A DNA stretch of 64,000 nt, taken from NCBI GenBank assembly GCA_965279705.1, contig OZ257257.1, positions 2,715,113 to 2,779,112 of the forward strand, read 5' to 3'. This DNA is from Stagnimonas sp. GTDB taxonomy: Bacteria; Pseudomonadota; Gammaproteobacteria; Nevskiales; Nevskiaceae. The notes beneath the pieces are model-generated. The model did not search any database. It was not told the DNA's origin and saw only the letters and a program-made list of their open reading frames with translations. Below are positions 5,720-46,713 of the stretch, piece after piece; within the stretch, counting starts at the first letter, position 1; each line of letters begins with the position of its first letter. Position numbers and translations under genes: made by a program.

Positions 5720-5738
5720 GTCGCCTCCGTGCACGTAC

Positions 5739-9747: not shown

Positions 9748-9756
9748 CGCAGCACC

Positions 9757-11364: not shown

Positions 11365-11467
11365 GCCTGCGCCCCTGACACGGTGCCGTGAGCGAAGCGA
11401 GCGTGGGTGCGGGAAGGGGCGCAAGTCGGCATGGCGGGTAGAACCTCAAAGGTTGTGCGATCTGTTT

Positions 11468-15925: not shown

Positions 15926-15928
15926 GGT

Positions 15929-17763: not shown

Positions 17764-17863
17764 TTCTGCGCTCCGTTTCGATGCTGTTCGATGATTAAGG
17801 CGCTAATGTTAGGAAAGCATTTCAACGATGTGATGCCATTCGGCATCGTGCAAAGGCCAATCC

Positions 17864-18640: not shown

Positions 18641-18852
18641 AGGGGCTGCGTCCCCTAACGATCCACACTGGCCATTCGCCGGATCAATGAGTGACCGCTT
18701 CTGGCGCTTTTGAGACCATCGCCCCACTCCATGAGCCGTGCGCGGTTGTTGAAAATGATCTGGCGGTGATCGGCTGGGATGGCCTGCTTCGAGTCGTTAC
18801 CGCTGACAGGTTTTCCCTTCGACAGGTGGCAGGCTTGGGTCGGAGAATGCGG

Positions 18853-20775: not shown

Positions 20776-21317
20776 AGCGCCACCTTGGGATTGGCCCGAG
20801 CATCGGTATCGGCCGCGAAGAATTCGGCAGCGCGGAAGGCGAAACTGCGGGCAACGAGCAGATCCGGAAACTGTTCGAGACGCGTGTTGTATTGGCGCAC
20901 CGAGCCGTTATAGAAGCGGCGTGCCGACTGCAGGCTGTTCTCCACCTCGGCCAGCTGCTGCGAGAGTTTCGAGAAATTCGCCGAAGCCTTCAGGTCGGGA
21001 TAGGCCTCGGCGAGCGCGATGAGACCCGACAGGTTCTGCCCGAGTGCGGTTTCGTGCTGGCCCTTGGCGTTGGCGCCCTGCGCGCGCTGACTGGCATTGC
21101 GCTCGGCCGCCACCTGCTCGAACACCGTGCGCTCATGGCCGGCGTAGCCCTTGACGATCTCGACCAGATTCGGGATCAGGTCGTAGCGCCGTTGCAGCTG
21201 CACATCGACATCGCTCCAGGCGGCGGCGACCTGGTTGCGGTCGCTGATCAGGCGATTGAACACCCAGATCACCAGGGCCGCGATGGCCAAGCTGGCAACA
21301 GCGGCTACCCATTCCAT
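20772..21317 (-). CDS. LemA family protein
   Basis: 181 aa from ATG 21317. Single N-terminal TM helix ('VAAVASLAIAALVIWVF'), then 'RRYDLIPNLVEIVKGYAGHE' and 'ARRFYNGSVRQYN', typical LemA blocks. Confidence 0.8.
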   Translation of the reverse strand: MEWVAAVASLAIAALVIWVFNRLISDRNQVAAAWSDVDVQLQRRYDLIPNLVEIVKGYAGHERTVFEQVAAERNASQRAQGANAKGQHETALGQNLSGLIALAEAYPDLKASANFSKLSQQLAEVENSLQSARRFYNGSVRQYNTRLEQFPDLLVARSFAFRAAEFFAADTDARANPKVAL

Positions 21318-21450
21318 GGTCGATCTCCGTCGAACTGCCTGCCCAGGAAGGCCGGCGATCAACGATAGCAAAGGCGGGTTGCGATCCGATCGAAGTGGAA
21401 AGACAAAATCCGTTCGCCCTGAGATTGTCGAAGGGCCTTGGCTCAGCGTC

Positions 21451-22338
21451 TCAGGACTTGGCCGGAACCGCTTCGCGGCTGAAAATGCCGATCATCGTCG
21501 TGCCATGGGCGCGCATGGCCGGCTCGATGCGCCGGTGCAGCGCGTGATAGTGATAGAACGGAACACGCGGAAACAGATGGTGCACCGAGTGCAGGTTCTG
21601 TCCCAGCCAGAACCACTCCAGCGGCTTCATCCAGGTCGGCATGATCAGGCTGTTGGTGTTGCGGTAACGCGCCGAATCCTCATAGGGGTGGTGCGGCCGG
21701 TAGGCGAACCAATACGCCGTGAAGAACGCGCCGATCAGATAACCCACCACGAGCAGCAGCACGGTGTGCTCACGCGCCACCATGAGCGCAAAGGCCAGTC
21801 GCCAGCCCAGGGCGAAGGTCACCTCCGCCACGTAGGCAGCGCGCTCGCGCCACGGTGCCGTCGGCCAGTAGTCGCGGAACAGGAAGGTGTTCTGCACCCA
21901 CAGGAAGCGCACGGCACTAGCGATGAAGGACAGCAACCCATGGCGCATGCCGCTGACAACGTGGTCCGGGTCCTTGTCTGGCTGATTCGTGTAGCGGTGA
22001 TGCGTGAAGTGCTCCACCCGGTGGGTGGAGAACGGCACCATGATCAAGGGTGCCACCAGGTAGCCGCAGAGGTCGTTCAACCATTGCAGCCGATCATGGC
22101 CGCCGTGGATGTTGGCGTGCGCCGCCTCGTGCAGCGGCGTGTAGGACATATAGGTCAATACGGCATAGACCGGGATCGCGCCCCACAGCGGCATGATGCC
22201 TTCTGCAAATAGCCAGAGGTTGGCGATGAAGGCTGCAATCACGCTCAGCGCCAGCACGACGGTTGGCCAAGCCAGCTCGCCGGTGTATTCCTTCGACGTA
22301 GCGATAGCCTGCTTGTTCAACGAGACGAGATCCTGCAT
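21451..22338 (-). CDS. Membrane fatty-acid-desaturase-family di-iron protein
   Basis: 295 aa with three His boxes ('HEAAH', 'HFTHHRY', 'HSVHHLF') and hydrophobic helices. SD 'CAGGAG'. Confidence 0.75.
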   Translation of the reverse strand: MQDLVSLNKQAIATSKEYTGELAWPTVVLALSVIAAFIANLWLFAEGIMPLWGAIPVYAVLTYMSYTPLHEAAHANIHGGHDRLQWLNDLCGYLVAPLIMVPFSTHRVEHFTHHRYTNQPDKDPDHVVSGMRHGLLSFIASAVRFLWVQNTFLFRDYWPTAPWRERAAYVAEVTFALGWRLAFALMVAREHTVLLLVVGYLIGAFFTAYWFAYRPHHPYEDSARYRNTNSLIMPTWMKPLEWFWLGQNLHSVHHLFPRVPFYHYHALHRRIEPAMRAHGTTMIGIFSREAVPAKS

Positions 22339-22409
22339 GGCTGACTCCTGCGCAAATAGTAAAAGGGCCTAGCTTTGTAGACCCAACAAAATGGATGACG
22401 TCGGTGGTT

Positions 22410-23375
22410 TTATTGCTGTGGAAGCGCCAGCTTCAAGACGCCCTTGTCGCCGCCCACAAGCATCAAATTGCTCGTCATCTGGATCGCCGCGAAGACCTGA
22501 TCGCGGTTCAGGCTCTTGGCCTTGATGACCGAGGCTTTCCTCTGGCTGCCGCTGATGCGAAGGATCACACCATCGGCACCGACCAAAATGGCGTCTTCGC
22601 CCGACAGCGCACCCGCGAACAGGCTGGACGTGGTGCCGGTTTCCACCTTCGTCCACTGGCCGGTTTCGGGGGCGTCGGAAACATAGACATTGCCGCGCAT
22701 GCCGAATACCACCATGCCGCGCTCGCCCAGCGGCAGCACGCCGAACAGCGAGCCCTCGTAGGGCAGTGCGATGCGCTGCCACTCGCTACCGTCGCTGGAA
22801 AGCCCTACTAGACCGTGCTCGCCAACAACGGCCATGCGGCCATCGTGCAGCCGGGCGATGGCATTGAAGTGGTACTTCTCGCCGTTGATGGCGGGGGCAT
22901 CGACATCGGCCCAAGTCTTGCCGCCGTCCGCACTGCTCTTGATGGTGCCGAAAGCACCAACCGTGATGATCTGCTGAGCACTCAGCGGCAGCACGGCGAA
23001 CAGCGGTGCGTTCTGGTCCGGCTGCCAGTTTTGCAAGGCCCAGGTTGCACCGCCATCGGCGCTGTGCAGAATCGCGCCGTCGTGACCCACGGCCCAGCCG
23101 TTGCGCGCATCGGCGAAGGCGAGGCCTGTGAGCGTGGAGTCCACGGGGCTCGCCACTTGCTTGAAGTTCTTGCCGTCTACCGCGCGTAGAATGACGCCGT
23201 TACCGCCCACGGCGACACGGCTCGTGCCTGCAGCCGCCAGCCCTAGCAGCAGGCCCTCAGTGGCTTTGGGGCTGATGAGCGCAGGTAACGGTTTGGATGT
23301 GGCGGCTTCGGCGAAGACGGGCGTGGCCTGTGCAAGCACCAAGGCACCGAGGGCGATCAGAGAGAGCTTGTTCAT
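22410..23375 (-). CDS. Ycf48-like BNR/Asp-box beta-propeller protein (periplasmic)
   Basis: 321 aa. Signal peptide 'MNKLSLIALGALVLAQATPVFA' and Asp-box repeats 'SADGGATW', 'SADGGKTW' and 'SSDGSEW'. ATGA overlap with the RND gene. Confidence 0.75.
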   Translation of the reverse strand: MNKLSLIALGALVLAQATPVFAEAATSKPLPALISPKATEGLLLGLAAAGTSRVAVGGNGVILRAVDGKNFKQVASPVDSTLTGLAFADARNGWAVGHDGAILHSADGGATWALQNWQPDQNAPLFAVLPLSAQQIITVGAFGTIKSSADGGKTWADVDAPAINGEKYHFNAIARLHDGRMAVVGEHGLVGLSSDGSEWQRIALPYEGSLFGVLPLGERGMVVFGMRGNVYVSDAPETGQWTKVETGTTSSLFAGALSGEDAILVGADGVILRISGSQRKASVIKAKSLNRDQVFAAIQMTSNLMLVGGDKGVLKLALPQQ

Positions 23376-25963
23376 GCGTGCGCACCGGCAGCGTTGGTTT
23401 TTGGAACTTTCATCAGCAGGCTCGCAAAGGCGGGCAGCATGACGAGGGCGGCGACGGCATTGGCGAGGAACATGATGGTGAGCAGAATGCCCATGTCGAT
23501 CTGGAATTGAAGATCAGACATCACCCAGGTCGCCACGCTCGCCGAGAGCGCGATGGCGGTGACCACCACCGCCTTGCCGGTCTGGTGCAGGGTGTCGGCA
23601 TAGGCCTCGCGCAGGGCCATCCCCTTCATCTTCACGTTTTCTTCGAGCACGCTGTAGATGTAGATGCCGTAGTCGACGCCAATGCCCGCTGCGAAGGCCG
23701 CCACTGGCAGGGTCGCCACCGTCTGGCCGATGCCGAGCCACACCATGATCGCGTAGGTGAACACCGAAACCGCCGCGAGCGGCACCACGATGCAGATGAT
23801 GCCGGTGAGGCCCCGGAAGCTCGCATAGACGCAGATGATGATCGCCGCGAACAGCCAGAACAGCACTTTGAACTCGGTCTCCGCAATCACCTCGTTGGTG
23901 GCCGCCATCACGCCGACGTTGCCGCCGGCGAGCGTGAACTTCACCGGGCTGTCGGGCCCCTGTTCGGCGTTGTAGCTTTTGATGGCCTTGAGGATGCCGT
24001 TGATGGTGGTGGCGCGATGGTCGGCGGTGAAGAGGTAGGTCGGCATCACCGAGCAGTCTTCGTTGAGCAGGCCCGTGGAGGTGGTGAACTGCTGGCCGGC
24101 GAGGATGAGGCCATCCTCCGAGCGTGGCAGCTGCGACCAACGCGGGTTGCTCTCGTTCATCTTGTTCCACACCAGCTTGTCCATGATCGGCATCGAGACC
24201 GTGGACACGATGCCCGGCACGCCTTGCATGTACCAGCCGAAGCGGTCGATCTGGTTCATCACGGCATAGTCGATGCAGCCGTTCTTCTTGGTCTCGGCGT
24301 AGATCTGCAGGATGTCCACACCGATGGCGTAGTTCTTCGAGACAAAGGCCGAGTCCTGGTTGTAGCGGGAGTCGGGCTTGAGCGCCGGCACACCGTCGTG
24401 CAACTCACCGATCTGCAAATCCCTGGCAACCGTCAAGGCACCGGCCGAGGCCAGACCCAGCACCACCAGCACGCCGACGGCCATTCGCGGATTGGTGAGT
24501 GCGGAGAAGCGCCACCACAAAGGTTTCAGCTTCTGGTCGCGGCGGCGCTGAAAGCTGCGAAAACGCTCAGGGTCGGGCAGCTTGGCGTACGAGAGCAGGC
24601 AGGGCAGCAAAATCTTCTTGCAGACGATGACGGCCAGCAGACCGAACATGGCGTTGATCGCCATCTCCTGCACGATGCCGATCGGGATCAGCAGAATGGT
24701 GCCGAAGCCGATGACATTAGTGACCAGCGCGGTGATACCGGGAATGACCAGACGGCGGTAGGTCGCACGCGAGGCATCGAAGCTGTTGAGGCCGCGATCC
24801 GCCACTTCCAATAGCCAGAAACTGGTGATCTGGATGCCGTGACTGACACTGATCGCGAGTACGAGAAACGGAACCAAGATCGCGAAAGGATCGAGCGCAT
24901 AGCCGGCGAGATGCAGAATGCCCATCTCCCACACCACCGCGAGCAGGCCGCAGCTCAGCGGGTAGAGCGCCACCACGAACGAGCCCATGTACCAGGCGAG
25001 CACAAACCACACGAGTAGCACCGTGATGCCGAAGAAGGTGACGACGCCGAGCGAGGCATTTGCGACGTCGCCGATGACCTTGGCGAAGCCGATGATCTGC
25101 ACGTCGATGTCGGGGTTGTAGTCGGGGTTCTTTGATTCGACCACTTCGAGATCGCTGCCGGAGAAGCGGCGGTCGATGGTCTCGCCATCGGCGGCAACGG
25201 CGGTGCCGTGGAAGCCCTTGTAGTTGAACAGCAGCCCGCGCGGGTCTTCATACAGGGCCAGCACGCGGGTGCCAGCGGCGAGCGGTGCGCTCTCGGCCTT
25301 GAGCTTCAGCTCATAGAGCATCGGTTGCGTCAGCCGCCCCCGAATGTTCTCGAACTGGTGTGCGGCGCGGATGGTGTCGAGCTTTTCCTGCGTGCGCGGA
25401 TTGGTCTCGACCAGCTCCGAGGCGACGATGGCCGAGCGTTGGTCGTTGGAGATGAGGCGGCCGATGATGCTCGCCTTGCGCACATTGTCCTTGATGGTTT
25501 CGAGCGCTTCGGGTGTGGGCTTGAAGCCCGAAGGCACCACGTTACCGCCCTGAAAACCGCCTTCCACCACTTCGAGATAGCGGGTGTTGGGCGTGAACAT
25601 GGAGCTGACGCGGGTGCGATCGACCCCCGGCAGATAAAACACCGCGTCGGTCGCGGTCTTGAGCGAGGCGAGGAAGGGGCCGTTGTAGATGTCGCCCTTG
25701 CCTTCTTTTTGCGAGACGGCAAGCAACACCGTGTTGCCACCGCCGAACTGCGCCTGATGCTGGCGCAGCACTTGAATATAGGGGTGATCCTTCGGCAGCT
25801 GCTTATCGAAGCCGGAGTCGAGCTTGAGTTGCGAAGCCTGCCAGCCGAGCAAGACCGTCATCAGGGAGATGACAGTGAGCGTGAGGGGGCGCTTCGAGAA
25901 AATCAGGGGTTCGGTGATCTTGACGAAAAAGGTCGAGAACCAGCCGCGGGGATCGCCGTGCAT
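23372..25963 (-). CDS. RND-superfamily transporter, MMPL/HpnN-like (about 12 TMS)
   Basis: 863 aa with two hydrophobic helix bundles, each preceded by a large soluble loop. The size and layout are those of MMPL-type lipid exporters. Confidence 0.75.
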   Translation of the reverse strand: MHGDPRGWFSTFFVKITEPLIFSKRPLTLTVISLMTVLLGWQASQLKLDSGFDKQLPKDHPYIQVLRQHQAQFGGGNTVLLAVSQKEGKGDIYNGPFLASLKTATDAVFYLPGVDRTRVSSMFTPNTRYLEVVEGGFQGGNVVPSGFKPTPEALETIKDNVRKASIIGRLISNDQRSAIVASELVETNPRTQEKLDTIRAAHQFENIRGRLTQPMLYELKLKAESAPLAAGTRVLALYEDPRGLLFNYKGFHGTAVAADGETIDRRFSGSDLEVVESKNPDYNPDIDVQIIGFAKVIGDVANASLGVVTFFGITVLLVWFVLAWYMGSFVVALYPLSCGLLAVVWEMGILHLAGYALDPFAILVPFLVLAISVSHGIQITSFWLLEVADRGLNSFDASRATYRRLVIPGITALVTNVIGFGTILLIPIGIVQEMAINAMFGLLAVIVCKKILLPCLLSYAKLPDPERFRSFQRRRDQKLKPLWWRFSALTNPRMAVGVLVVLGLASAGALTVARDLQIGELHDGVPALKPDSRYNQDSAFVSKNYAIGVDILQIYAETKKNGCIDYAVMNQIDRFGWYMQGVPGIVSTVSMPIMDKLVWNKMNESNPRWSQLPRSEDGLILAGQQFTTSTGLLNEDCSVMPTYLFTADHRATTINGILKAIKSYNAEQGPDSPVKFTLAGGNVGVMAATNEVIAETEFKVLFWLFAAIIICVYASFRGLTGIICIVVPLAAVSVFTYAIMVWLGIGQTVATLPVAAFAAGIGVDYGIYIYSVLEENVKMKGMALREAYADTLHQTGKAVVVTAIALSASVATWVMSDLQFQIDMGILLTIMFLANAVAALVMLPAFASLLMKVPKTNAAGAHA

Positions 25964-25974
25964 GGGAATGTCCG

Positions 25975-26020
25975 ATAAAAAAGGTGCCCTGCGCCGCAGC
26001 GGGGTGGCTGCGGCGCAGGG
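25975..26020 (-). terminator. Strong GC hairpin plus U-tract between DUF1329 and the RND gene (intrinsic terminator/attenuator)
   Basis: The minus-strand RNA reads CCCUGCGCCGCAGC-CACCCC-GCUGCGGCGCAGGG-CACC-UUUUUUAU. This is a perfect 14-bp stem with a 6-nt loop and a U6 tract after a 4-nt spacer. Confidence 0.5.
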
Positions 26021-26035
26021 TGAAGGTGTTGCGGC

Positions 26036-27403
26036 TTACTTCGAGGCGCGCTGCTGCACGGCGCTGTCGGTGAAGAAGCCGTCCGGGTAGTCCACGCTGT
26101 AGTCGTTGGGAGCACCCTGAGCTTGCAGTGCGGTCACGAAGTAGCGACCGGAGTCGAAGTGATAAACGATCTCAGGCACCGTGAAGTGGGTCAGCACGTT
26201 GGTCTGCGGTGTGCCCATGCCTTCCTGGAAGTTGAACAGCCCGCCCTGACCGTCGTAGAGGTCGACCATAAGGATGCTCCAGCTGTCTTCATCCACGTAG
26301 AACACGCGCTTGGCGTAGGTGTGGCGCTCGCCGGGTTTCAGCGTGGCTTCGACCACCCAGACGCGATGCGCTTCGTAGCGCGGCAGTTCGGGGTTGAGGT
26401 GGTTGGGCTTGGCGAGCGTGTCGTACTTGGCGCGGGCGATCTTGAAGTTGTTGTACGGCACGACCATGTCGCGTTTGCCGACCAGCTTCCAGGTGTAGCG
26501 CTCAAGCACGCCGTTGAACATGTCCACCTGGTCATAGAACAGCTGACCGTCGGTGCCCTCGTACGGGTTGTCGCAGCACACCGCCGGTGCGCGGCGAATG
26601 CGCTTCAGTGCCGGTGCATACAGCCAGGCCGCGCGGCCGGTGGCCCCGGTGCCGCCGCTCTCGTTGACGAGAATCATGGTGCCCGCGGTGCGCGAGGGGG
26701 CGATGATCTTCGAGAGGTAATACAGGAACAAACCCTTGCCATTGGTGAGCGGCACCGGGTTCTTCTCGTTGGCGTAGAGAAACTTCACATCCTCCACCAG
26801 CTGTGCGAGTTGAAAGCGGCCGCTGGCATCGACGTTCATCTGGTCGTTGTTGCGGCGCACGGTGTTGCCGCGCCACTTGATGCGGTGGTTCCAGATCACC
26901 TCAGCGCCCGTCTTCGGAATGGGATACGGGAAGCCCTGGACGCACTTGTCCGGGTTGTCGGTGCCGATCAACTCGCAGGTAGTGGCGTTGACGGCGGTGG
27001 ACTTGTAGATGAAGTCCGGCCAGGCCACGGTGCGGTGACTGGGGTAGACCTGCATCTTGTAGCTGGGGAAGGTCTTCAGCAGGTATTTGTGACCCTCGCT
27101 GAGCTTGCCGGCATATTTGGCGGCGTCAGCGCCGGCGATCGTGTAGAGCGGCTTGTCGGCTTCAATCTTGGGGTCGCTGGCGTACTCGCCCGTCAACTTG
27201 CCGGACTGCTTCGCAGGCGTCCACGCCGGGATGCTGCCGTCCTTGTTGGGGCCAGCCTCGGCCCCGATCGGCGTGAGCTGATTGCCGAGCTTGGCGGCTT
27301 CGGCCGCGGTGGCCTTGGCAAGCGCAGTATTCGAGAGCGGCAACAGTGCCGCCGCAATCAGAGCCAGTCTGAGCGCAGGGCTGCGCCAATGTGCTGGATT
27401 CAT
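26036..27403 (-). CDS. DUF1329 family periplasmic/outer-membrane lipoprotein-sorting-like protein (copy 1)
   Basis: 455 aa from ATG 27403 (SD GGAGGAAG). Signal peptide 'LRLALIAAALLPLSNTALA'. Blocks 'ERYTWKLVGKRDMVVPYNNFK' and 'YEAHRVWVVEATLKPGERH' are shared with 49591-50958. Confidence 0.75.
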   Translation of the reverse strand: MNPAHWRSPALRLALIAAALLPLSNTALAKATAAEAAKLGNQLTPIGAEAGPNKDGSIPAWTPAKQSGKLTGEYASDPKIEADKPLYTIAGADAAKYAGKLSEGHKYLLKTFPSYKMQVYPSHRTVAWPDFIYKSTAVNATTCELIGTDNPDKCVQGFPYPIPKTGAEVIWNHRIKWRGNTVRRNNDQMNVDASGRFQLAQLVEDVKFLYANEKNPVPLTNGKGLFLYYLSKIIAPSRTAGTMILVNESGGTGATGRAAWLYAPALKRIRRAPAVCCDNPYEGTDGQLFYDQVDMFNGVLERYTWKLVGKRDMVVPYNNFKIARAKYDTLAKPNHLNPELPRYEAHRVWVVEATLKPGERHTYAKRVFYVDEDSWSILMVDLYDGQGGLFNFQEGMGTPQTNVLTHFTVPEIVYHFDSGRYFVTALQAQGAPNDYSVDYPDGFFTDSAVQQRASK

Positions 27404-27428
27404 GTTCTTCCTCCGGGGGTGATGGTGA

Positions 27429-29882
27429 TTAAAACGAGTACTTCGCAAAGGCTTTGATCGTGTCGCGGTCACGGAACAAATTGGCATTGCCGGCACCGCT
27501 CCACAGCTGGTAGCCAATGTTGAAAGAGGTCTTGTCGCGGTAGCGCATCTCGATGTTGGTGTCCCACAGCGTGCGGCCCTCCACGTAGTTGGAGAGATAG
27601 CCCGGCGAGTGGCCGAACAGGTCGTGCTTGAAGATGATTTGCGGCGCGATGCTGATGTCCGGCAGCACGTTCTCCCAACGGATCAGCCAGACAAAACCCA
27701 CGCCACCGGAGAACTTGGTGGGGTAGAGATTCAGTGGTGCCTGGTGCGGGTTGAAGCGCAAGCCATCCGCGCCGAACACACAGGCCTGATTGCTGGAGCA
27801 AGCCTGCTGCGAGCCATCGGCACCCGAACCATCGGCACCGGCAGTGGGGCTGGTGAAAGTGCCGGGCACCGCGAGGGCCAGTTCTTCCAGATGCGGAATG
27901 CCCACATAGCGGAAGCCGATCTCTGGCAGCCAGATCACTTGGTCAGCACCGAGCAGGCGAGCCGTGAAGTCGGTATTGCCCTCGACGTAGGTGGCACCGA
28001 AATCCAGCGAAAGCGTCTTGAAGGTTTCCCAGCCGCGGATATAGCTATTGGCCGGGTTGGTGCCTAGCGTGCCGCCGCGGTACGGAATGATGAAGTTGGG
28101 GAAGGAACGCCCCGAACCTGGCAAATGGCCGACGACGAGATCGAAAGTGTCTGGAAAGGCACCTGCACCATTTGCCGTGGTGTAGTTGCTGGAGGGATAG
28201 AGTCCGGTCAACCCATTGGCCTGGGTTCCGCTGCCGGCGGTGCTGCCCGCGCAACCGGGTGCCAGATGGCAGTTGGTGAGCGTAGGCCCCAAGCCCGCAA
28301 AAACGAGATCGACGATGTCCACCTGCAGGGGGTCATGGGGCCGGTAGGCCGCCTCACCCTGAAACGAGACATCGCCGAAGCTGGTGTTGAAACTGAAGCC
28401 GAACATCTTGATGTTGCGCGGATACTCGAGCTGCACCTTCACCGAGTCCAGGGAGAGCGCGCTGTCGGTGGCCCCTGCTGGGTCGTTGGCCCTGTGCAGC
28501 AATGGGATGTCGGGGCAATCGCCCAGAAACTCGAGCGTGCTGGTGGAGTTCTTCGAGCAGGACTCGTCGGCAGAGAACACGCTCACCATCGGAATGCGTG
28601 AGGTGTAGTTGGCAAAGTAGAAGCCGAGGTTGGTGCCGTTGTTGAGCCAGTCGGCGGTGTAGGTGAGTTTGAGGCCGTAGTTGTTGTCGATGTCCTTGGG
28701 GTTGTCGTCCCGCAGCCGCTCGGCGCGCGAAGTGGTGTTGGTGATGAGCGTCAGCGGGTTGTCGATGAGCCTGCCCACGCCATCCTCATCCGGCGTGAGG
28801 TTGCCGAAACTGATGCTGACGTAGTCCGGCCCCTCGTTGAGCGTGCCGAGATTGACGGGTGAGTAGAAGCCGCCATAAGCCGGCAACTCGACGGGCCGAA
28901 ACTCCAGGGCATACCAGCCCGAGATGTTGGTGTTGTCGGTGGGATTGGTGCCGAAGCTGAAGGCATTGAGTGGCTGGTAGAAGTCATCCAGCCCGTTGCC
29001 GCCGACGCGGAAGAAGTTGTTGAGGTCGGGCGGGTTCAGCACGTTGATGGAGTCGAAGAACTGCAACGTCGCCTCGCCCCAGATCACCTGCTGCTTGCCG
29101 AGGCGCACCGCGACATCGAGCGTATCGAAGAAGTTGATCGAGCCCGTGACGTTGATGTCGAGCAGCTGGAGACCGAGCCCGATTTCGCGATCTACCCGAC
29201 CGCCACGCTGCCGCTCCACCCGGCCGCCCGGCCCGTAGACGATGCCGCAAGGCAGCAAGTTGCCGGGGTTGCGATTGGCCGGGCAAGGCGTGGAATCGGT
29301 GCGCGCACCAAGCGTCGGCAGTGCGACGCTGCCGGGGAATGTGGTGTAGCCCACATCCTGCAAGTTCTCATCGGTGATGAGGTTGGGATGGGTCTGTTTG
29401 AAGCGGTAGTTGACCGGGTCATAGATCGCAATGGCCTTGGCGAACACGAACCAGTCCTTCCAGCCGAAGGTGACATCCTGGTTGAGGCGGAACAGGCCCT
29501 GAGCGAGATCCCACTGCTCGTAGTTGATATTGCCTTGGTCGAAATTGGGACTGAAGGACCCTGGCGCTGCGGCGAGGTGCTCGGCGGCAAAGGTCTGCCC
29601 GGTGAACAGCCCCTGACAGGCTTGGTAATAGCTGCTGGTGCCAGTCCGCCCGCAGACTTCGGGGTCGAGATTGTTCTTGGAAATGGTGGACTTGTCTTGC
29701 GGTTCGGCGCGAACCGCCACACCACCGATGAAGGTGCTGTTGTAAACCAGATCAATCGGCTGGTCGCCGATGAAGGGGATCTTGACCTGACCAGCACCCG
29801 CACTCTGCACAGCAAGCCCTAACAACAGCGCGGCCAATCCCTGTGCTTTACGTGAACGCAATCCCTGCGACTTCTTCGCCAT
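27429..29882 (-). CDS. DUF1302 family outer-membrane protein (copy 2, long form)
   Basis: 817 aa. Canonical signal peptide 'GLAALLLGLAVQSAGA', 'QQVIWGEATLQFFDS' block and C-terminal 'FAKYSF'. A-rich leader with SD GAGAGGAGAG. Confidence 0.75.
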   Translation of the reverse strand: MAKKSQGLRSRKAQGLAALLLGLAVQSAGAGQVKIPFIGDQPIDLVYNSTFIGGVAVRAEPQDKSTISKNNLDPEVCGRTGTSSYYQACQGLFTGQTFAAEHLAAAPGSFSPNFDQGNINYEQWDLAQGLFRLNQDVTFGWKDWFVFAKAIAIYDPVNYRFKQTHPNLITDENLQDVGYTTFPGSVALPTLGARTDSTPCPANRNPGNLLPCGIVYGPGGRVERQRGGRVDREIGLGLQLLDINVTGSINFFDTLDVAVRLGKQQVIWGEATLQFFDSINVLNPPDLNNFFRVGGNGLDDFYQPLNAFSFGTNPTDNTNISGWYALEFRPVELPAYGGFYSPVNLGTLNEGPDYVSISFGNLTPDEDGVGRLIDNPLTLITNTTSRAERLRDDNPKDIDNNYGLKLTYTADWLNNGTNLGFYFANYTSRIPMVSVFSADESCSKNSTSTLEFLGDCPDIPLLHRANDPAGATDSALSLDSVKVQLEYPRNIKMFGFSFNTSFGDVSFQGEAAYRPHDPLQVDIVDLVFAGLGPTLTNCHLAPGCAGSTAGSGTQANGLTGLYPSSNYTTANGAGAFPDTFDLVVGHLPGSGRSFPNFIIPYRGGTLGTNPANSYIRGWETFKTLSLDFGATYVEGNTDFTARLLGADQVIWLPEIGFRYVGIPHLEELALAVPGTFTSPTAGADGSGADGSQQACSSNQACVFGADGLRFNPHQAPLNLYPTKFSGGVGFVWLIRWENVLPDISIAPQIIFKHDLFGHSPGYLSNYVEGRTLWDTNIEMRYRDKTSFNIGYQLWSGAGNANLFRDRDTIKAFAKYSF

Positions 29883-29965
29883 GTGCTCTCCTCTCTCATT
29901 TGTTTTTTGTTGTTTCCAGACTGGTCAGGTGTTACCCCTGGCTCAGGTGCCGCTCAAAGCTCGCT

Positions 29966-31363
29966 CTAGTGGATCGCCACGAAGTCCGGTTTCTCGCGCA
30001 CTGCGCAGTGCGGGCAAGGCCAGTCTTCCGGCAGGGCCTGCCAGGCGGTGCCTGCCGGGTAACCCTCGGCCGGACAGCCTTGCGCGCTGTCGTAGACGTA
30101 CTGGCAATTCGGGCACTGGTGCCGTGCGGCAAGCGCGCCGGCGGTGACCGGTTTGATGGGCGCACCGATGTGCGTGATGACCGCAGTCGAGCCATCGCCC
30201 CATTGCCGCAGCAGGCGTTCGCGCGCGGGCGGATGCAGACTGGCCTTGCTCAAATCACCGCCGTGGTGTGCGACCACCTTCGAGTCCATGAGCCAGTACC
30301 ACAGCGGTGGCAGATAGGCGGCGAGCACCATCGCCGCATAGCCGGAGGGCAGCTGCGGGCTGTCCTCGAAATGCCGCAGGGCCTGGTAGCGGCGCGTCGG
30401 GTTGGCGTGGTGGTCGGAATGTCGCTGCAACTGATACAGAAAGAGATTGCTGACGATGTGGTTCGAGTTCCAGGAGTGACGCGGCTGGCAGCGTTCAACG
30501 CGGCCGTTGGCGTCCTTCAAGCGCATCAGGCCGTAGTGTTCGAGGTAGTTCACTACCTCCAAGAGACTGAAGCCATAGACGGCCTGTGCGACCAGAAACA
30601 CCAGCGCCCAAGGGCCGAGCCAGACGGTGAGCGCGCCGAACATCAGCACCGTCATCACCCAGGCTTGCAGGTTCTCGTTCTTCACCGACCACACCGGCTT
30701 GCCCAAGCGCGCCAGCCGCTCGCGCTCGATACCCCAGGCAGATTTCACGCTGCCCACCACCGTGCGCGGCCAAAAGGCCCAGAAGCTCTCGCCCATGCGC
30801 GAGCTTGCCGGGTCATCGAAAGTCGCCACGTTTTTGTGGTGGCCCTTGTTGTGCTCGATGAAGAAATGACCGTAGGCCACGGGTGCGAGCGTGATCTTCG
30901 CCAGCCAGCGTTCGAGCGCGCTGGTCTTGTGGCCCAGTTCGTGGGCGGTGTTGATACCCACGCCATTGGCCATGCCGCAGGCCACGACCAGGCCGATCAG
31001 CGAAACCCAATCCAGGTTGCCCTGCACCGCGAGCCAAGCGCCCGCGATGGTGGCCACGTACTGGCTGGGGATATAGGCGATAACGATTCGCAGGTAATAG
31101 CGGTCGGCATCGAGCGCAGTGACGGCCGACTCCGGCGCATTGATCGGGTCTTCGCCGATGAACCAGTCGAAGAACGGTACGATGCCGTAGAAGATGAAGG
31201 GCAGCGACCACAGCAACCAGCCCGGTGCACCATTGGCCACCGCGACGATGGAAGCCGCGCCCACCAGTGGCAGGGCCGGGCTTAAAAGCCACAACCAACG
31301 TTTGCCGTCCACCCAAGGGGCAGCATTATTTGTATTCGGTGCGACGTTAGTGATCGTCGTCAT
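29966..31363 (-). CDS. alkB: Alkane 1-monooxygenase fused to a C-terminal rubredoxin domain
   Basis: 465 aa from ATG 31363 (SD GGAGGAG). AlkB His boxes 'HELGHK', 'EHNKGHH', 'NYLEHYGL' and 'LQRHSDHH'. The C-terminal rubredoxin 'HQCPNCQYVYD...PEDWPCPHC' has two CxxC pairs. Confidence 0.9.
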   Translation of the reverse strand: MTTITNVAPNTNNAAPWVDGKRWLWLLSPALPLVGAASIVAVANGAPGWLLWSLPFIFYGIVPFFDWFIGEDPINAPESAVTALDADRYYLRIVIAYIPSQYVATIAGAWLAVQGNLDWVSLIGLVVACGMANGVGINTAHELGHKTSALERWLAKITLAPVAYGHFFIEHNKGHHKNVATFDDPASSRMGESFWAFWPRTVVGSVKSAWGIERERLARLGKPVWSVKNENLQAWVMTVLMFGALTVWLGPWALVFLVAQAVYGFSLLEVVNYLEHYGLMRLKDANGRVERCQPRHSWNSNHIVSNLFLYQLQRHSDHHANPTRRYQALRHFEDSPQLPSGYAAMVLAAYLPPLWYWLMDSKVVAHHGGDLSKASLHPPARERLLRQWGDGSTAVITHIGAPIKPVTAGALAARHQCPNCQYVYDSAQGCPAEGYPAGTAWQALPEDWPCPHCAVREKPDFVAIH

Positions 31364-31422
31364 GGCGGGTCTCCTCCGCTGTGTAATGCAGCGCAGTGTC
31401 GCGGAAGCCCATCCCGTCAGGC

Positions 31423-31458
31423 CTGTCATTTCGCGCCTATTTGCTGTCATATTGCGCC
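31423..31458. promoter_or_regulatory. Direct repeat CTGTCATTTCGCGCC / CTGTCATATTGCGCC, 21 bp start-to-start (candidate AraC-type activator site)
   Basis: Read from the alkB/AraC divergent intergenic region. The repeat proximal to alkB ends about 60 nt upstream of the alkB ATG. Confidence 0.4.
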
Positions 31459-31481
31459 ACCGTGTGGCTTGAGGAGCTGGG

Positions 31482-32564
31482 ATGGATCACGCACTGCTGC
31501 GGGTGCCTGCGCGCTATTACGCACGGCTGGCCGATGTGCTCGTCGCCGAGCGGCTCGATCTCGCGCCGGTATTGCGCGAAGTGCGGTTGCCAGCCGATGC
31601 GCTGACCCGGCCCAACGCGATGCTGAGCCTCGCTCAGGTCGAGCGTCTGCTGGCAGGCTTGCGCGTGCGCAGCATGCGCACCGACCTTGGCTTCGAGGTC
31701 GGCAAGCTGCTCAGCGTCAGCGCTCACAGCTTTGTCGGATTCGGGATGCTCAACAGCCCCAATGTCGCGCAGGCCCTGCACTTCATGTCGCGTCACTTCC
31801 GGCTGATCATGCCGAGTTTCAGCCTGCGCTTTATCTGCAAGCCGGAGCATGGCGAGCTGCATTTTTCGCCGACGGTGGCCATGAGCCACGAGGCCCTGCT
31901 GTTTCACATCGAGGCCATCGGCATGGCGGCCGTGCGCGAGGTGCGCGACCTCTCGGATGGCCGCATGCTGGAGGCGCAGCTCGACCTCGCCATGCCGCCA
32001 CCGCCCCATGCGGATCGTTATCGCGCGCTGCCCAGGCTGAAAGTGAATTTCCACTCTGAACTTGGCCCTGCGGTATGCCTGCGGGTGAGCGGCAATCTCG
32101 ATGCCCTGCCGATCATCTCTGCCGACACCAGCGCCCTGCGCGTGGCGGAAGAACGCTGCCGCCTGTTGATTGAGCAGGCGACCGAGGCGCGCGGACTGGG
32201 TGAGCTGATCGCCATGACCCTGCGCCAATCTGGAGACGGGCTGCCTTCGGAGCAAGAGATTGCCCACATGTTCAACATCTCGCAGCGCACGCTCAACCGC
32301 TACCTGCAGCATGAGCAAACCAGTTTTCGCGAGATCAACCGCACCGTGCAGCATGCACTGGCGCAAGAGCGACTTGTGGCCGGGCGCATGACCATCAGCG
32401 AGATCGCCTACTCGCTGGGCTTCAGCGACGCCGCCAATTTCACCCGCGCCTTCCGCAACATCGAGGGCTGTTCTCCGAAAGCGTTTCAGCGAAGAGCCAT
32501 TGAATCTGCCGGTACCCATCGTACGACTGCGGCTGAAGCTGCTGCTCTTGTTCGTGGTGCCTGA
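31482..32564 (+). CDS. AraC family transcriptional regulator (AraC-binding-like N-domain + HTH)
   Basis: 360 aa. C-terminal HTH 'ISEIAYSLGFSDAANFTRAFRNIEGCSPKAF'. Divergent from alkB. Confidence 0.85.
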   Translation: MDHALLRVPARYYARLADVLVAERLDLAPVLREVRLPADALTRPNAMLSLAQVERLLAGLRVRSMRTDLGFEVGKLLSVSAHSFVGFGMLNSPNVAQALHFMSRHFRLIMPSFSLRFICKPEHGELHFSPTVAMSHEALLFHIEAIGMAAVREVRDLSDGRMLEAQLDLAMPPPPHADRYRALPRLKVNFHSELGPAVCLRVSGNLDALPIISADTSALRVAEERCRLLIEQATEARGLGELIAMTLRQSGDGLPSEQEIAHMFNISQRTLNRYLQHEQTSFREINRTVQHALAQERLVAGRMTISEIAYSLGFSDAANFTRAFRNIEGCSPKAFQRRAIESAGTHRTTAAEAAALVRGA

Positions 32565-32725
32565 CGGATCTACTCGGCAAACTGTGAATTGCTTTTGAGC
32601 GGCTCGTGCTAGGGCGTGTCATCAATAATCAGGCCATCGTCCCAGGCTCGCCGGATACTACGAAAGAGTGAGGGCGATACCCGGTGGCAGGCCGATACTG
32701 CGGCCATAAAATCGAGGAGAGCCCC

Positions 32726-40535: not shown

Positions 40536-40590
40536 AGGATTTCGTGCTGATCCAACTGTCGTGATGCGTTGTAATAAAAGAATTCGGTTT

Positions 40591-40616
40591 CAATCTTGAA
40601 TTAGATTCACAGATTG
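40591..40616. promoter_or_regulatory. Imperfect 26-bp palindrome CAATCTTGAAT-TAG-ATTCACAGATTG, candidate TetR operator
   Basis: Located in the only AT-rich stretch of the TetR/OMF divergent intergenic region. Inner arms TGAAT/ATTCA and outer arms CAATCT/AGATTG are perfect, with a 1-nt bulge between them. Confidence 0.45.
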
Positions 40617-40681
40617 GTCAATAATGCCTTCATTCGAGATTCCCCAAGCCGCCCAAAATCGGCTCCAAGCCCGAGACACCC

Positions 40682-42193: not shown

Positions 42194-42253
42194 AGACGCT
42201 CCGCCGCATTTTTTCCATCCCTTCAAACTCTCTTCCTACCCAAGCATCCCGCC

Positions 42254-43564: not shown

Positions 43565-43589
43565 AGCGCTCGCGCTTGAGAACAGCCCC

Positions 43590-46691: not shown

Positions 46692-46713
46692 GCCCTCGTG
46701 ACTGCATCAAAAA

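What the first reader, a model, noticed from the sequence alone, without database searches (positions are those of the whole stretch)
21451..31481. AlkB-rubredoxin followed on the same strand by DUF1302, DUF1329, MMPL-type RND, Ycf48-like and desaturase-like genes: candidate trans-envelope alkane/lipid handling system
On the minus strand, an alkane hydroxylase gene with its divergent AraC regulator is followed after only 83 nt by four further genes. These are a large outer-membrane DUF1302 protein, a periplasmic LolA-like DUF1329 protein (25-nt gap), an MMPL/HpnN-like inner-membrane RND transporter and a BNR/Ycf48-like beta-propeller (ATGA overlap). A membrane di-iron desaturase-family gene follows 71 nt later. 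The DUF1302/DUF1329/RND/BNR set recurs as a neighbourhood in proteobacteria but has, to my knowledge, no established mechanism. Here its components span every envelope compartment (OM barrel, periplasmic carrier-like protein, IM proton-driven transporter, propeller). They are also physically, and probably transcriptionally, tied to the first enzyme of alkane oxidation. That arrangement points to a dedicated machine that moves very hydrophobic substrates (alkanes, waxes, lipids) across the envelope, or exports a surfactant lipid. The direction of transport cannot be inferred from sequence.
Basis: partly seen in the sequence, partly recalled or inferred. Interest (0 to 1): 0.75.

Follow-up and report, generated by a model that had tools for sequence, protein, structure and literature searches.

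The report
Alkane hydroxylase operon with envelope transporter
A hydrocarbon-degrading bacterium has joined its alkane-oxidising enzyme gene to a four-protein, envelope-spanning transporter of an already described but poorly understood type, which gives a testable lead on how oily molecules are moved across the bacterial envelope.

Summary
All family calls, gaps and overlaps were reproduced.

On the minus strand lie alkB-rubredoxin, DUF1302, DUF1329, an HAE3/MMPL-type RND, a Ycf48-like propeller and a small di-iron "desaturase". A divergent AraC regulator sits upstream.

The four middle genes are not an unknown neighbourhood. They match the AmeABCD-type "tetrapartite RND" cassette of Castellaniella defragrans. 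The same four families are cofit in RB-TnSeq and were proposed in 2024 to form a transport system.

What I could not find in the searchable literature is the link to alkB:
- All 19 orthologous cassettes in Nevskiales genomes have a membrane di-iron oxygenase gene within about 6.5 kb. It is alkB-Rd directly upstream in 11.
- A second cassette lineage with a different gene order (RND-DUF1329-DUF1302-BNR) also follows alkB, 51 nt away in one metagenomic contig.
- About 50 solitary DUF1302 paralogue loci almost never have alkB nearby.

A strong hairpin, conserved in position but not in sequence, separates the outer-membrane pair from the RND-propeller pair. The "single operon" is therefore probably attenuated there.

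Best reading: an alkane-regulated, proton-driven hydrophobe conduit. Transport is probably outward, but direction is unproven.

Verdict: a new member of a known kind, of moderate interest.

The parts
31482..32564 (+). AraC-family regulator (Arabinose_bd + HTH_18), divergent from alkB; the presumed alkane-responsive activator
   Evidence: Pfam hits. The best NCBIfam hit is CypR, far below its cut-off. The divergent AraC/alkB pair is conserved in all Nevskiales loci examined, including those without the cassette.
31423..31458 (-). Two direct repeats GGCGCRAWATGACAG (31444-31458 and 31423-31437), 21 bp apart; the presumed AraC operator of the alkB promoter
   Evidence: Two matches in the window against 0.04 expected. 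The repeats are conserved in alkB upstream regions of 11 loci from different genera. No copy lies upstream of DUF1302, the RND gene or the desaturase-like gene.
29966..31363 (-). AlkB-rubredoxin fusion, an alkane 1-monooxygenase
   Evidence: E 3.4e-192 to PDB 8F6T, the Fontimonas thermophila AlkB-AlkG fusion. Motifs HELGHK, EHNKGHH, NYLEHYG and LQRHSDHH and two CxxC pairs are present.
27429..29882 (-). Long-form DUF1302 outer-membrane beta-barrel, 817 aa
   Evidence: Pfam E 1e-126, with about 270 residues more than the 541-position model. It has a signal peptide and a C-terminal ...KYSF. The AF2 model has pLDDT 81 and pTM 0.82. Its best PDB folds are 16-18-strand barrels: chitoporin, AlgE, OccAB and MOMP, target-normalised TM about 0.5. 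Eight Cys residues are invariant.
26036..27403 (-). DUF1329, a LolA-like periplasmic protein with a type I signal peptide and no lipobox
   Evidence: Pfam DUF1329 E 3.5e-118 and LolA_like 43 bits. The only weak PDB matches are LolA-like proteins.
25987..26020 (-). Intercistronic hairpin (14 bp, 12 G-C pairs) followed by T6, between the OM pair and the IM pair; a likely attenuator or mRNA-stabilising element
   Evidence: -35.4 kcal/mol, z = -7.5. It is the strongest intergenic hairpin in the window and is not a repeated element there. A comparable hairpin with an unrelated stem sequence sits at the same position in every locus analysed where DUF1329 directly precedes the RND gene.
23372..25963 (-). 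HAE3/MMPL-type RND transporter, 863 aa
   Evidence: Pfam MMPL hit. TIGR00921 (HAE3) 114 bits and HpnN 44 bits, both below their cut-offs. In a profile search of the PDB the best match is HpnN 5KHN, E 8e-7. Hydropathy shows two transmembrane clusters, with large loops at about 46-300 and 513-690. D764-Y765 is invariant.
22410..23375 (-). Ycf48-like BNR beta-propeller with a signal peptide, translationally coupled to the RND gene by an ATGA overlap
   Evidence: PSII_BNR E 3.8e-15. PDB Ycf48 8AM5, E 1e-16. The same overlap is seen in L003, L005 and L016.
21451..22338 (-). 295-aa membrane di-iron enzyme of the FA_desaturase family, substrate unknown; an accessory, mobile member
   Evidence: Pfam E 1.5e-38. 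His boxes HEAAH, HRVEHFTHH and HSVHH are present. CrtR scored 88 bits against a 475 cut-off. Its position varies in relatives and is inside the operon in L048. No PDB match was found by sequence or fold.

Best explanation
This is an alkane-regulated module with three parts.

1. An AraC-type activator binds two direct repeats and drives alkB-rubredoxin. The product is a genuine inner-membrane alkane 1-monooxygenase. In the solved homologue the substrate tunnel opens inside the bilayer.

2. The same transcript most likely reads on into DUF1302 and DUF1329, the outer-membrane sub-module: a porin-like barrel and its LolA-like periplasmic partner. A conserved hairpin then lets only part of the transcription through, or stabilises the upstream segment. 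Beyond it lie the inner-membrane sub-module (an HpnN-like RND translationally coupled to a Ycf48-like propeller) and an accessory di-iron enzyme.

3. The four envelope genes are a member of the AmeABCD-type tetrapartite RND cassette. I think it works as a proton-motive-force-driven conduit. [quoted passage not shown] Transport is therefore outward, as in every characterised RND.

In this context the cargo is most likely the alkane or its alkanol. The cell can then set how much hydrocarbon sits in the membrane that houses AlkB.

What is shown: gene content, family membership, conserved linkage to hydrocarbon oxygenases, and the conserved hairpin.
What is inferred: co-transcription, physical assembly, cargo and direction.

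I put about 0.8 on 'a hydrophobe-handling envelope system functionally coupled to alkane oxidation'. I put about 0.4-0.45 on the outward hydrocarbon or alkanol version specifically.
For: Family calls.

Linkage:
- In 19 genome loci whose DUF1302 is at least 61% identical, alkB(-Rd) is directly upstream in 11. It lies 2-6.5 kb upstream, with inserted genes, in 3.
- The other 5 carry a different PF00487-type oxygenase gene beside the cassette. These are an AlkB/XylM-like gene with a Fer2-FAD-NAD reductase (L015 also has a FadL/TodX gene; L020 also has a MalT-type regulator), or the small desaturase-like gene, with a MalT/AlkS-type regulator and a ferredoxin/rubredoxin reductase in L008.
- A second cassette lineage (DUF1302 about 40% identical, order RND-DUF1329-DUF1302-BNR) follows AraC/alkB-Rd by 51 nt in L076 and by 410 nt in L081. 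A third layout has alkB divergent from AraC-...-DUF1329-DUF1302 (L111/L112).
- About 50 solitary DUF1302 paralogue loci have no alkB in their flanks, apart from L111/L112.
- The window and a Stagnimonas MAG share the four-gene cassette at 85-97% DNA identity, while alkB/AraC are 48-87% identical and the outer flanks are unrelated. Yet an alkB sits at the junction in both.

Regulation:
- Distant cassettes and plasmid copies have a MalT/LuxR-type regulator (PMC13499233).
- I found no MalT-type regulator in the window and no second AraC operator.
- The 83-nt alkB-DUF1302 spacer has no strong hairpin.

Direction and mechanism:
- The best PDB relative of the RND is HpnN.
- C. defragrans lacking ameABCD is less tolerant to limonene and accumulates more Nile Red (PMC6394551).
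- Co-folding predicts RND-BNR, DUF1329-RND and DUF1329-DUF1302 contacts (PMC10866462). DUF1302-DUF1329 gave ipTM 0.84 (PMC13499233).
- The AlkB tunnel entrance lies within the membrane (PMC10113152).
Against: - No expression, binding or transport data exist for this organism or for any Nevskiales cassette.
- Long-chain alkanes are barely toxic, so an efflux or 'relief' role is less compelling than it is for monoterpenes.
- P. putida mutants in all four families fail on Tween 20 and butyl stearate as carbon sources. Delftia DUF1329 mutants grow poorly on phenanthrene. Both fit substrate acquisition at least as well as efflux (10.1101/2020.07.04.188060; PMC13101534, citing Shetty et al.).
- The window holds three DUF1302 and two DUF1329 genes but only one RND-BNR pair. 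That ratio resembles uptake receptors sharing one engine more than efflux pumps sharing one channel.
- The hairpin with its T-tract could be a full terminator. The RND half would then be a separate unit.
- Much of the alkB adjacency within the Nevskiaceae may descend from a single ancestral event.
- AlkB orthologues in Flagellatimonas, Algiphilus and one other genome lack the cassette next to them.
Confidence: 0.45

Rival explanations
1. Uptake machine. DUF1302 is the entry channel for alkanes at the cell surface. DUF1329 carries them across the periplasm. The RND-propeller complex receives or releases them at the inner membrane next to AlkB, or acts as a shared inner-membrane engine for several substrate-specific outer-membrane modules.
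For: - The cassette sits in the same unit as the first catabolic enzyme, as uptake genes such as alkL usually do (general knowledge).
- In L015 the cassette is followed by a FadL/TodX channel gene and an AlkB-like oxygenase.
- Outer-membrane modules outnumber the inner-membrane module in this window and in Pseudomonas (10.1101/072470).
- P. putida needs all four genes to grow on Tween 20 and butyl stearate (10.1101/2020.07.04.188060). This was interpreted as a 'novel substrate transport system' (PMC10866462).
- In Thalassolituus an MMPL+LolA-like fusion was induced 42-fold on solid, non-toxic C28, and the adjacent porin was detected only on C28 (PMC6304351).
Against: - To my knowledge no RND-superfamily transporter is known to import.
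- Alkane partitioning into the inner membrane is downhill and needs no energy.
- The C. defragrans mutant is less, not more, tolerant to limonene when acetate is supplied (PMC6394551).
Confidence: 0.25
2. Endogenous lipid exporter. The cassette moves a cell-made lipid (a membrane lipid, a surfactant-like lipid or vesicle material) to the outer membrane. This remodels the cell surface for contact with oil. Alkanes themselves are not the cargo.
For: - Price et al. found pleiotropic, cofit phenotypes and proposed 'export of a cell wall component' (10.1101/072470).
- The closest solved relative, HpnN, moves hopanoids to the outer membrane (PMC6394551).
- DUF1302 and DUF1329 are components of Delftia nanopods and outer-membrane vesicles (PMC3110197).
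- The family is near-universal in P. aeruginosa, including non-degraders (PMC13499233).
- A lipid-modifying di-iron enzyme gene travels with the cassette.
Against: - Orthologous cassettes are specifically next to hydrocarbon oxygenases of different types. They are not next to lipid-biosynthesis genes.
- Many paralogues sit in substrate-specific catabolic islands, which argues for xenobiotic cargo.
Confidence: 0.2
3. No functional link. The alkB-cassette adjacency is inherited synteny in one family of bacteria, and the cassette has a general housekeeping role.
For: - Most alkB-adjacent cases belong to one clade.
- AlkB orthologues in three other Nevskiales genomes have no cassette beside them.
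- The plasmid and Pseudomonas cassettes sampled have no alkB.
Against: - There are three different architectures (alkB-A-B-D-C, alkB-D-B-A-C, and alkB divergent from AraC-...-B-A), using cassette lineages only about 40% identical.
- Where alkB-Rd is absent, another membrane oxygenase takes its place.
- Flanks differ between close relatives while the block is kept.
- The usual MalT-type regulator has been lost here.
Confidence: 0.07
4. DUF1302/DUF1329 are esterases that hydrolyse fatty esters (the original suggestion from P. putida fitness data).
For: Mutants fail on Tween 20 and butyl stearate (10.1101/2020.07.04.188060).
Against: - The DUF1302 model is a porin-like beta-barrel.
- DUF1329 matches LolA-like carriers.
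- I saw no hydrolase family hit for either.
- The same research group later reinterpreted them as transport components (PMC10866462).
Confidence: 0.02

Closest known systems
AmeABCD of Castellaniella defragrans 65Phen (tetrapartite HAE3-type RND; Puentes-Cala & Harder 2018, PMC6394551)
   Same: It has the same four families: a DUF1302 outer-membrane protein, a DUF1329 LolA-like protein, a COG4447/Ycf48-like protein and an HAE3-type RND. They are clustered, embedded in a hydrocarbon-catabolic island and induced with the pathway. It has no HlyD-type adaptor and no TolC-type channel.
   Different: - The gene order here is A-B-D-C, not A-B-C-D.
- The barrel is 817 aa against 605 aa, with disulfide-rich extra loops.
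- The cassette lies directly behind alkB under an AraC regulator rather than in a monoterpene island.
- A conserved hairpin splits it into two halves.
Pseudomonas putida PP_0765/PP_0766 plus PP_2018/PP_2019, and the Shewanella, Kangiella and P. stutzeri homologues (RB-TnSeq: 10.1101/072470, 10.1101/2020.07.04.188060; co-folding: PMC10866462)
   Same: The same four families are involved. The OM pair and the IM pair behave as two sub-modules that are cofit. Predicted contacts are RND-BNR (strong), DUF1329-RND and DUF1329-DUF1302.
   Different: In Pseudomonas the two pairs are at separate loci and controlled by a MalT/LuxR-type regulator. The phenotypes are on fatty esters and detergent, with no link to alkB. 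Plasmid-borne Pseudomonas homologues are 35% (RND) and 42% (DUF1329) identical to the window proteins.
HpnN (hopanoid RND transporter, PDB 5KHN) and MmpL3
   Same: HpnN is the best solved relative of the RND by profile search. It has the same overall RND layout, and an Asp-Tyr pair in the C-terminal transmembrane bundle is invariant here (D764-Y765). I recall this pair as the MmpL3-type proton relay. These are lipid-type cargo exporters working from the inner membrane.
   Different: Similarity is very weak (E 8e-7, C-terminal bundle only). A single-sequence search found nothing. HpnN works without dedicated outer-membrane or periplasmic partners (PMC6394551).
FtAlkBG, the natural AlkB-rubredoxin fusion of Fontimonas thermophila (PDB 8F6T; PMC10113152)
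   Same: The alkB gene here is a close homologue over its full length (E 3e-192). It has all the His motifs and the fused rubredoxin. Both organisms are Nevskiales.
   Different: This applies only to the first gene of the finding. The structural papers I read do not mention an adjacent transport cassette.
Thalassolituus oleivorans TOL_3187/TOL_3188 (PMC6304351)
   Same: An MMPL-type RND with a LolA-like domain, plus an adjacent outer-membrane 'porin', is strongly induced on a long-chain alkane. The functional logic is the same: RND, LolA-like element and barrel, tied to alkane growth.
   Different: The LolA-like part is fused to the RND. No Ycf48-like protein is reported, and the porin has no recognised domain. 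Homology to this cassette was not tested.
Known alkane uptake proteins: AlkL/OmpW-type, FadL-type (AltL, AupA with AupB) (PMC5989066)
   Same: These are outer-membrane proteins encoded with or induced with alkane oxidation genes.
   Different: They belong to different folds and families (FadL/Toluene_X or 8-strand barrels), use no RND and use no energy source. The DUF1302 protein gave no Toluene_X hit, and its model resembles 16-18-strand porins.
HAE1 tripartite efflux pumps (AcrAB-TolC, TtgABC)
   Same: These are proton-driven RND pumps that span the envelope and expel hydrophobic solvents.
   Different: They need an HlyD-type adaptor and a TolC-type channel. A complete set of that kind is present separately in the window at 40682-46691. 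The cassette studied here has neither component.

Membership tests
AmeABCD-type tetrapartite HAE3 RND cassette | Outer-membrane protein of family DUF1302 (PF06980) with a signal peptide | tested here: met
   Pfam E 1e-126. Signal peptide and C-terminal Phe present. The model is a beta-barrel.
AmeABCD-type tetrapartite HAE3 RND cassette | Periplasmic LolA-superfamily protein of family DUF1329 (PF07044) | tested here: met
   Pfam E 3.5e-118 plus a LolA_like hit above its cut-off. Type I signal peptide present.
AmeABCD-type tetrapartite HAE3 RND cassette | Periplasmic COG4447/Ycf48-like BNR protein | tested here: met
   PSII_BNR 56 bits against a cut-off of 27. PDB Ycf48, E 1e-16. Signal peptide present.
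AmeABCD-type tetrapartite HAE3 RND cassette | Inner-membrane RND of the HAE3 family, with 12 TMS and two periplasmic loops | tested here: inconclusive
   The best NCBIfam model is TIGR00921 (HAE3), but it scored 114 bits against a cut-off of 352. The best PDB profile hit is HpnN. Hydropathy shows the two-cluster, two-loop pattern, but TM1 fell below my threshold. No phylogeny against TCDB families was made.
AmeABCD-type tetrapartite HAE3 RND cassette | All four genes clustered on one strand | tested here: met
   Gaps are 25 nt, 72 nt and a 4-nt overlap.
AmeABCD-type tetrapartite HAE3 RND cassette | Gene order DUF1302-DUF1329-BNR-RND, described as conserved in the Ame lineage | tested here: not met
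   The order here and in all close relatives is DUF1302-DUF1329-RND-BNR. A sister lineage has RND-DUF1329-DUF1302-BNR. Plasmid copies have the canonical order.
AmeABCD-type tetrapartite HAE3 RND cassette | Required for growth on, or tolerance to, unfunctionalised hydrocarbons; induced by them | not testable with these tools
   This needs expression and deletion experiments.
AmeABCD-type tetrapartite HAE3 RND cassette | Sequence homology to AmeA-D themselves | not tested
   The Ame sequences were not retrievable here. As a proxy, canonical-order Pseudomonas plasmid cassettes are 35% (RND) and 42% (DUF1329) identical.
AlkB-type alkane 1-monooxygenase fused to rubredoxin (FtAlkBG type) | The conserved His motifs of the di-iron site, and a C-terminal rubredoxin with two CxxC pairs | tested here: met
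   HELGHK, EHNKGHH, NYLEHYG, LQRHSDHH, CPNC and CPHC are present. Full-length match to 8F6T, E 3.4e-192.
AlkB-type alkane 1-monooxygenase fused to rubredoxin (FtAlkBG type) | Alkane hydroxylation activity with a rubredoxin reductase | not testable with these tools
   A candidate reductase gene (Pyr_redox_2 + Reductase_C) lies at 1342-2598. Activity is unknown.
HAE1 tripartite efflux pump (AcrAB-TolC type) | HlyD-family membrane-fusion adaptor and TolC/OEP channel encoded with the RND | tested here: not met
   None of the cassette proteins hits HlyD or OEP. Those families occur only in the separate pump at 40682-46691.
FadL/TodX or AlkL-type hydrocarbon uptake channel | Toluene_X (PF03349) or OmpW-type barrel | tested here: not met
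   There is no such Pfam hit. The fold search gives 16-18-strand porin-like barrels, not FadL.
Fatty-acid desaturase / CrtR-type hydroxylase (for the 295-aa gene) | Three His boxes of membrane di-iron enzymes | tested here: met
   HEAAH, HRVEHFTHH and HSVHH are present. PF00487 E 1.5e-38.
Fatty-acid desaturase / CrtR-type hydroxylase (for the 295-aa gene) | Membership of a named equivalog (CrtR, DesA and similar) | tested here: not met
   CrtR scored 88 bits against a cut-off of 475, and DesA 21 against 500. No PDB relative was found by sequence or fold.

The most novel reading that the evidence does not exclude
The RND-propeller pair is a shared inner-membrane engine. It serves several substrate-specific outer-membrane modules (DUF1302 barrel plus DUF1329 carrier), in the way TonB-ExbBD serves many receptors. 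In this operon it drives net delivery of alkanes from the cell surface to the membrane-embedded tunnel of AlkB. To my knowledge this would be the first RND-superfamily system working in acquisition of a substrate, and a dedicated energised alkane import route in Gram-negative bacteria.
Probability: 0.15. Interest if true: 0.85.

Novelty: new member of a known kind. Interest (0 to 1): 0.45.

Why it matters
How water-insoluble alkanes cross the Gram-negative envelope and reach AlkB is still poorly understood. Only passive FadL/AlkL-type channels and a few accessory proteins are known.

The DUF1302/DUF1329/Ycf48-like/HAE3 cassette is widespread. It is near-universal in Pseudomonas aeruginosa and common on catabolic plasmids and islands. 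It has mutant phenotypes but no biochemistry.

Nevskiales genomes place this cassette directly behind alkB, or beside other membrane hydrocarbon oxygenases. That gives the family a concrete candidate cargo. It also gives simple test organisms and one clear experiment on transport direction. The result would matter for bioremediation and for engineering whole-cell alkane oxidation, where substrate supply and product toxicity limit yield.

The conserved hairpin between the two halves also offers an entry point for studying how the stoichiometry of the envelope components is set.

Tried and rejected
The nearest named relative is a Stagnimonas MAG.
A PDB profile search was used instead.
- Single-sequence PDB searches for the RND and the desaturase-like protein: no hits.
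- AF2 model of the desaturase-like protein (pLDDT 78.6): no meaningful fold match, best E 0.9. Its function stays open.
- NCBIfam: no family for DUF1302 or DUF1329, and nothing above cut-off for the RND, BNR or desaturase-like proteins.
- Sigma-70 promoter scan: no site in any of the cassette's intergenic gaps, and the total was no more than the shuffled expectation. This neither supports nor excludes internal promoters.
- Rfam and tRNA scans of the window: nothing.
- Is the hairpin a repeated REP-like element? It is not repeated in the window.
- Is ORF 2691-4067, downstream of the second DUF1302, a DUF1329? It is not. It is an alpha/beta hydrolase.
- Plasmid collection: 43 records carry DUF1329 homologues. 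None of the five inspected has alkB nearby.
- The esterase hypothesis for DUF1302/DUF1329 was rejected on fold grounds.
- A HAE1-type pump was rejected because there is no adaptor or TolC-like gene in the cassette.

Full report
**What is there.**
The window is 60-66% G+C. Its closest relatives are Nevskiales gammaproteobacteria. The best named match is a Stagnimonas MAG. An identical DUF1302 protein is on record from an unnamed 3.6-Mb contig.

On the minus strand lie:
- alkB-rubredoxin, 29966-31363. The ATG at 31363 has a GGAGGAG ribosome-binding site.
- DUF1302, 27429-29882, after 83 nt.
- DUF1329, 26036-27403, after 25 nt.
- An RND transporter, 23372-25963, after 72 nt.
- A Ycf48-like BNR propeller, 22410-23375, with an ATGA overlap.
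- A 295-aa FA_desaturase-family gene, 21451-22338, after 71 nt.

An AraC regulator (31482-32564) is divergent from alkB.

**The individual proteins.**
AlkB-Rd is a full-length homologue of the solved Fontimonas thermophila AlkB-AlkG fusion (8F6T, E 3e-192). It has all the His motifs and both CxxC pairs. [quoted passage not shown]

DUF1302 has a signal peptide and a terminal Phe, and is about 270 residues longer than the Pfam model. An AF2 model (pLDDT 81, pTM 0.82) matches 16-18-strand outer-membrane barrels such as chitoporin, AlgE and OccAB. This agrees with a 2026 report on the family (PMC13499233). Eight Cys residues are invariant in the long-form subfamily.

DUF1329 also hits LolA_like.

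The RND shows two transmembrane clusters with two large periplasmic loops. It has an invariant Asp-Tyr pair (D764-Y765). In a profile search its best solved relative is the hopanoid exporter HpnN. It scores below NCBIfam's HAE3 cut-off.

The propeller matches Ycf48 structures.

**What is already known.**
The four-gene set is not uncharted.
- In Castellaniella defragrans the same four families are AmeABCD. They are induced on monoterpenes. Deletion impairs growth on unfunctionalised monoterpenes, lowers limonene tolerance and raises Nile Red accumulation. The authors call it a tetrapartite HAE3 RND exporter (PMC6394551).
- RB-TnSeq found the four families cofit in Shewanella, Kangiella and Pseudomonas, and proposed export of a cell-wall component (10.1101/072470).
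- In P. putida all four are needed on Tween 20 and butyl stearate (10.1101/2020.07.04.188060).
- Co-folding led to a 'novel hypothesized substrate transport system', with DUF1329 contacting both the barrel and the RND-propeller complex (PMC10866462).
- Related clusters are noted in a P. aeruginosa almA island (PMC7145413) and in an anaerobic benzene degrader (PMC13101534).

None of the papers my searches returned links the cassette to alkB.

**Is the alkB link real?**
I fetched 33 genome loci and 80 metagenome loci around DUF1302 relatives. I then mapped the window's proteins onto them.

Among 19 genome loci with DUF1302 at least 61% identical, spanning Stagnimonas, Hydrocarboniphaga, Nevskia, Solimonas and Stenotrophobium:
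- 11 have AraC<->alkB(-Rd) directly upstream of DUF1302-DUF1329-RND-BNR.
- 3 have alkB 2-6.5 kb upstream, with inserted genes.
- The remaining 5 have another PF00487-type gene beside the cassette:
  - L008: a MalT/AlkS-type regulator and a ferredoxin/rubredoxin reductase upstream, and the small desaturase-like gene downstream.
  - L015: a FadL/TodX gene, an AlkB/XylM-like gene and a Fer2-FAD-NAD reductase downstream.
  - L020: an AlkB/XylM-like gene with such a reductase, divergent upstream, plus a MalT-type regulator.
  - L021 and L022: a desaturase-like gene downstream.

A more distant cassette lineage matters most here. Its DUF1302 is about 40% identical and its order is RND-DUF1329-DUF1302-BNR.
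- It is also found directly behind AraC<->alkB-Rd, 51 nt away in L076 and 410 nt away in L081.
- L111/L112 show a third layout, with alkB divergent from AraC-...-DUF1329-DUF1302.
- By contrast, about 50 solitary long-form DUF1302 paralogue loci have no alkB in their flanks, apart from L111/L112. Many of those contigs are short.
- AlkB orthologues in Flagellatimonas, Algiphilus and another genome keep the AraC partner but have no cassette.

The association is therefore specific to the full cassette, recurrent and lineage-restricted.

**Modularity.**
Against the Stagnimonas MAG, DNA identity is 85-97% from just after the DUF1302 start codon to the BNR stop. It is only 48-87% over alkB/AraC. Beyond both ends there is no homology.

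The four genes therefore behave as a discrete unit, and an alkB is kept at its head even where alleles have been exchanged.

Distant and plasmid-borne cassettes carry a MalT/LuxR-type regulator. I found none in the window. The only AraC operator-like repeats (GGCGCRAWATGACAG x2, 21 bp apart) lie upstream of alkB. They are conserved across genera.

This points to regulatory capture of the cassette by the alkane regulon.

**Operon structure.**
The alkB-DUF1302 spacer in this genome has no strong hairpin (-11 kcal/mol in the best 44-nt window). More distant relatives have moderate hairpins there.

Between DUF1329 and the RND gene lies a 14-bp, 12-G-C hairpin followed by T6.
- Its energy is -35.4 kcal/mol, z = -7.5.
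- It is the strongest intergenic hairpin in the window and is not a repeat element.
- A comparable hairpin with an unrelated stem sequence occupies the same position in every locus analysed where DUF1329 directly precedes the RND gene.

I read it as a conserved attenuator or stabiliser that sets a higher output for alkB and the outer-membrane pair than for the inner-membrane pair. A full terminator cannot be excluded.

**Mechanism.**
The anatomy suggests two sub-modules bridged by the LolA-like protein. One is the barrel with its LolA-like partner. The other is the RND with its propeller.

To my knowledge every characterised RND moves cargo away from the inner membrane. The only direct experiment on this cassette type shows reduced hydrocarbon tolerance in the mutant. 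I therefore favour outward, proton-driven movement of alkane or alkanol (about 0.4-0.45).

The rivals are uptake (0.25), endogenous lipid export (0.2) and no functional link (0.07).

Three points favour acquisition:
- Long-chain alkanes have low toxicity.
- The P. putida and Delftia phenotypes appear on poorly soluble substrates.
- Outer-membrane modules outnumber inner-membrane ones here: three DUF1302 and two DUF1329 genes against one RND-BNR pair.

**Verdict.**

The finding is a new member of a known kind of system, with variant features: a permuted gene order, a long-form barrel and an alkB head. It also has a newly documented and well-supported association with membrane hydrocarbon oxygenases. 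Interest is moderate. It offers a clean experimental handle on an open question, not a surprise in kind.

Noticed in passing
window 3824-5749 (-), 49591-50982 (-), 63052-63975 (-): There are three further paralogues of the outer-membrane module. One is a short-form DUF1302 (641 aa). One is a DUF1329 that is 35% identical to the cassette copy and overlaps an MFS transporter gene (50979-52559) by 4 nt. One is a DUF1302 C-terminal part running off the window end. Only one RND-BNR pair is present in the 64 kb.
   Followed up: partly
window 1342-2598 (-) and 2691-~3800 (-): Downstream of the short-form DUF1302 lie two genes. One is an alpha/beta-hydrolase ORF with a GHSQG motif. The other is a Pyr_redox_2 + Reductase_C ferredoxin/rubredoxin-NAD+ reductase, a candidate electron donor for the AlkB-rubredoxin fusion.
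   Followed up: partly
window 21451-22338 (-); L040, L041, L042, L048, L002: The 295-aa di-iron 'desaturase' is unusually conserved, 73% identical between this genome and a Pseudomonas. Elsewhere it occurs as a two-gene module with its own divergent AraC regulator, next to FadL/TodX, P450/ALDH or FMO genes. In L048 it lies between alkB and DUF1302. It has no named equivalog and no PDB fold match, so its substrate is unknown.
   Followed up: partly
window 22350-29842 compared with L016: The four-gene cassette shares 85-97% DNA identity with a Stagnimonas MAG. alkB/AraC are only 48-87% identical, and both outer flanks are unrelated. The breakpoints fall in the alkB-DUF1302 spacer and just after the BNR stop, which suggests exchange of the cassette or of alkB by recombination.
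   Followed up: partly
window 27429-29882 (-): The long-form DUF1302 subfamily has eight invariant cysteines (C77, C89, C442, C456, C538, C544, C695, C701). They lie in the regions inserted relative to the Pfam model, which suggests four disulfide-stabilised loops. Whether the loops face outside or the periplasm was not determined.
   Followed up: no
window 31423-31458 (-): Two direct repeats GGCGCRAWATGACAG, 21 bp apart, lie upstream of alkB. They are conserved in alkB promoters of many Nevskiales genera and are a likely operator of the AraC-type alkane regulator.
   Followed up: partly
window 32684-34882 (+) and 34899-35942 (+): Next to the AraC gene lies a quinohaemoprotein alcohol dehydrogenase (PQQ propeller plus a cytochrome c domain). 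An enoyl-CoA hydratase-family gene follows. These are plausible next steps for alkanol oxidation. This neighbour is not conserved in the closest relatives.
   Followed up: no
window 8746-16711 (-): This is an acyclic-terpene-utilisation-like cluster: AtuA, a TetR regulator, biotin carboxylase, a biotinyl carrier, carboxyltransferase, enoyl-CoA hydratase and an alpha/beta hydrolase. It suggests branched-chain or isoprenoid catabolism close to the alkane genes.
   Followed up: no
window 39798-48901: A TetR regulator is followed by a complete HAE1-type tripartite efflux pump (OEP, HlyD-type adaptor, AcrB-type RND). A cytochrome P450 and a glutathione S-transferase come next. This is a separate, classical solvent/drug pump in the same neighbourhood.
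   Followed up: no
window 18853-21371 (-): A LemA and DUF2207 membrane-protein pair lies immediately downstream of the desaturase-like gene. The DUF2207 protein ends in a long Gly/Ser-rich tail. No relation to the cassette was seen in relatives.
   Followed up: no
window 17764-18852 and 58708-59929: My G+C-third-position gene caller found no clear gene in these two stretches of more than 1 kb. The first holds a 258-aa AraC-type ORF (17864-18640, +). The second has overlapping ORFs on both strands (58428-59870 + and 58842-60053 -) that I did not resolve.
   Followed up: no
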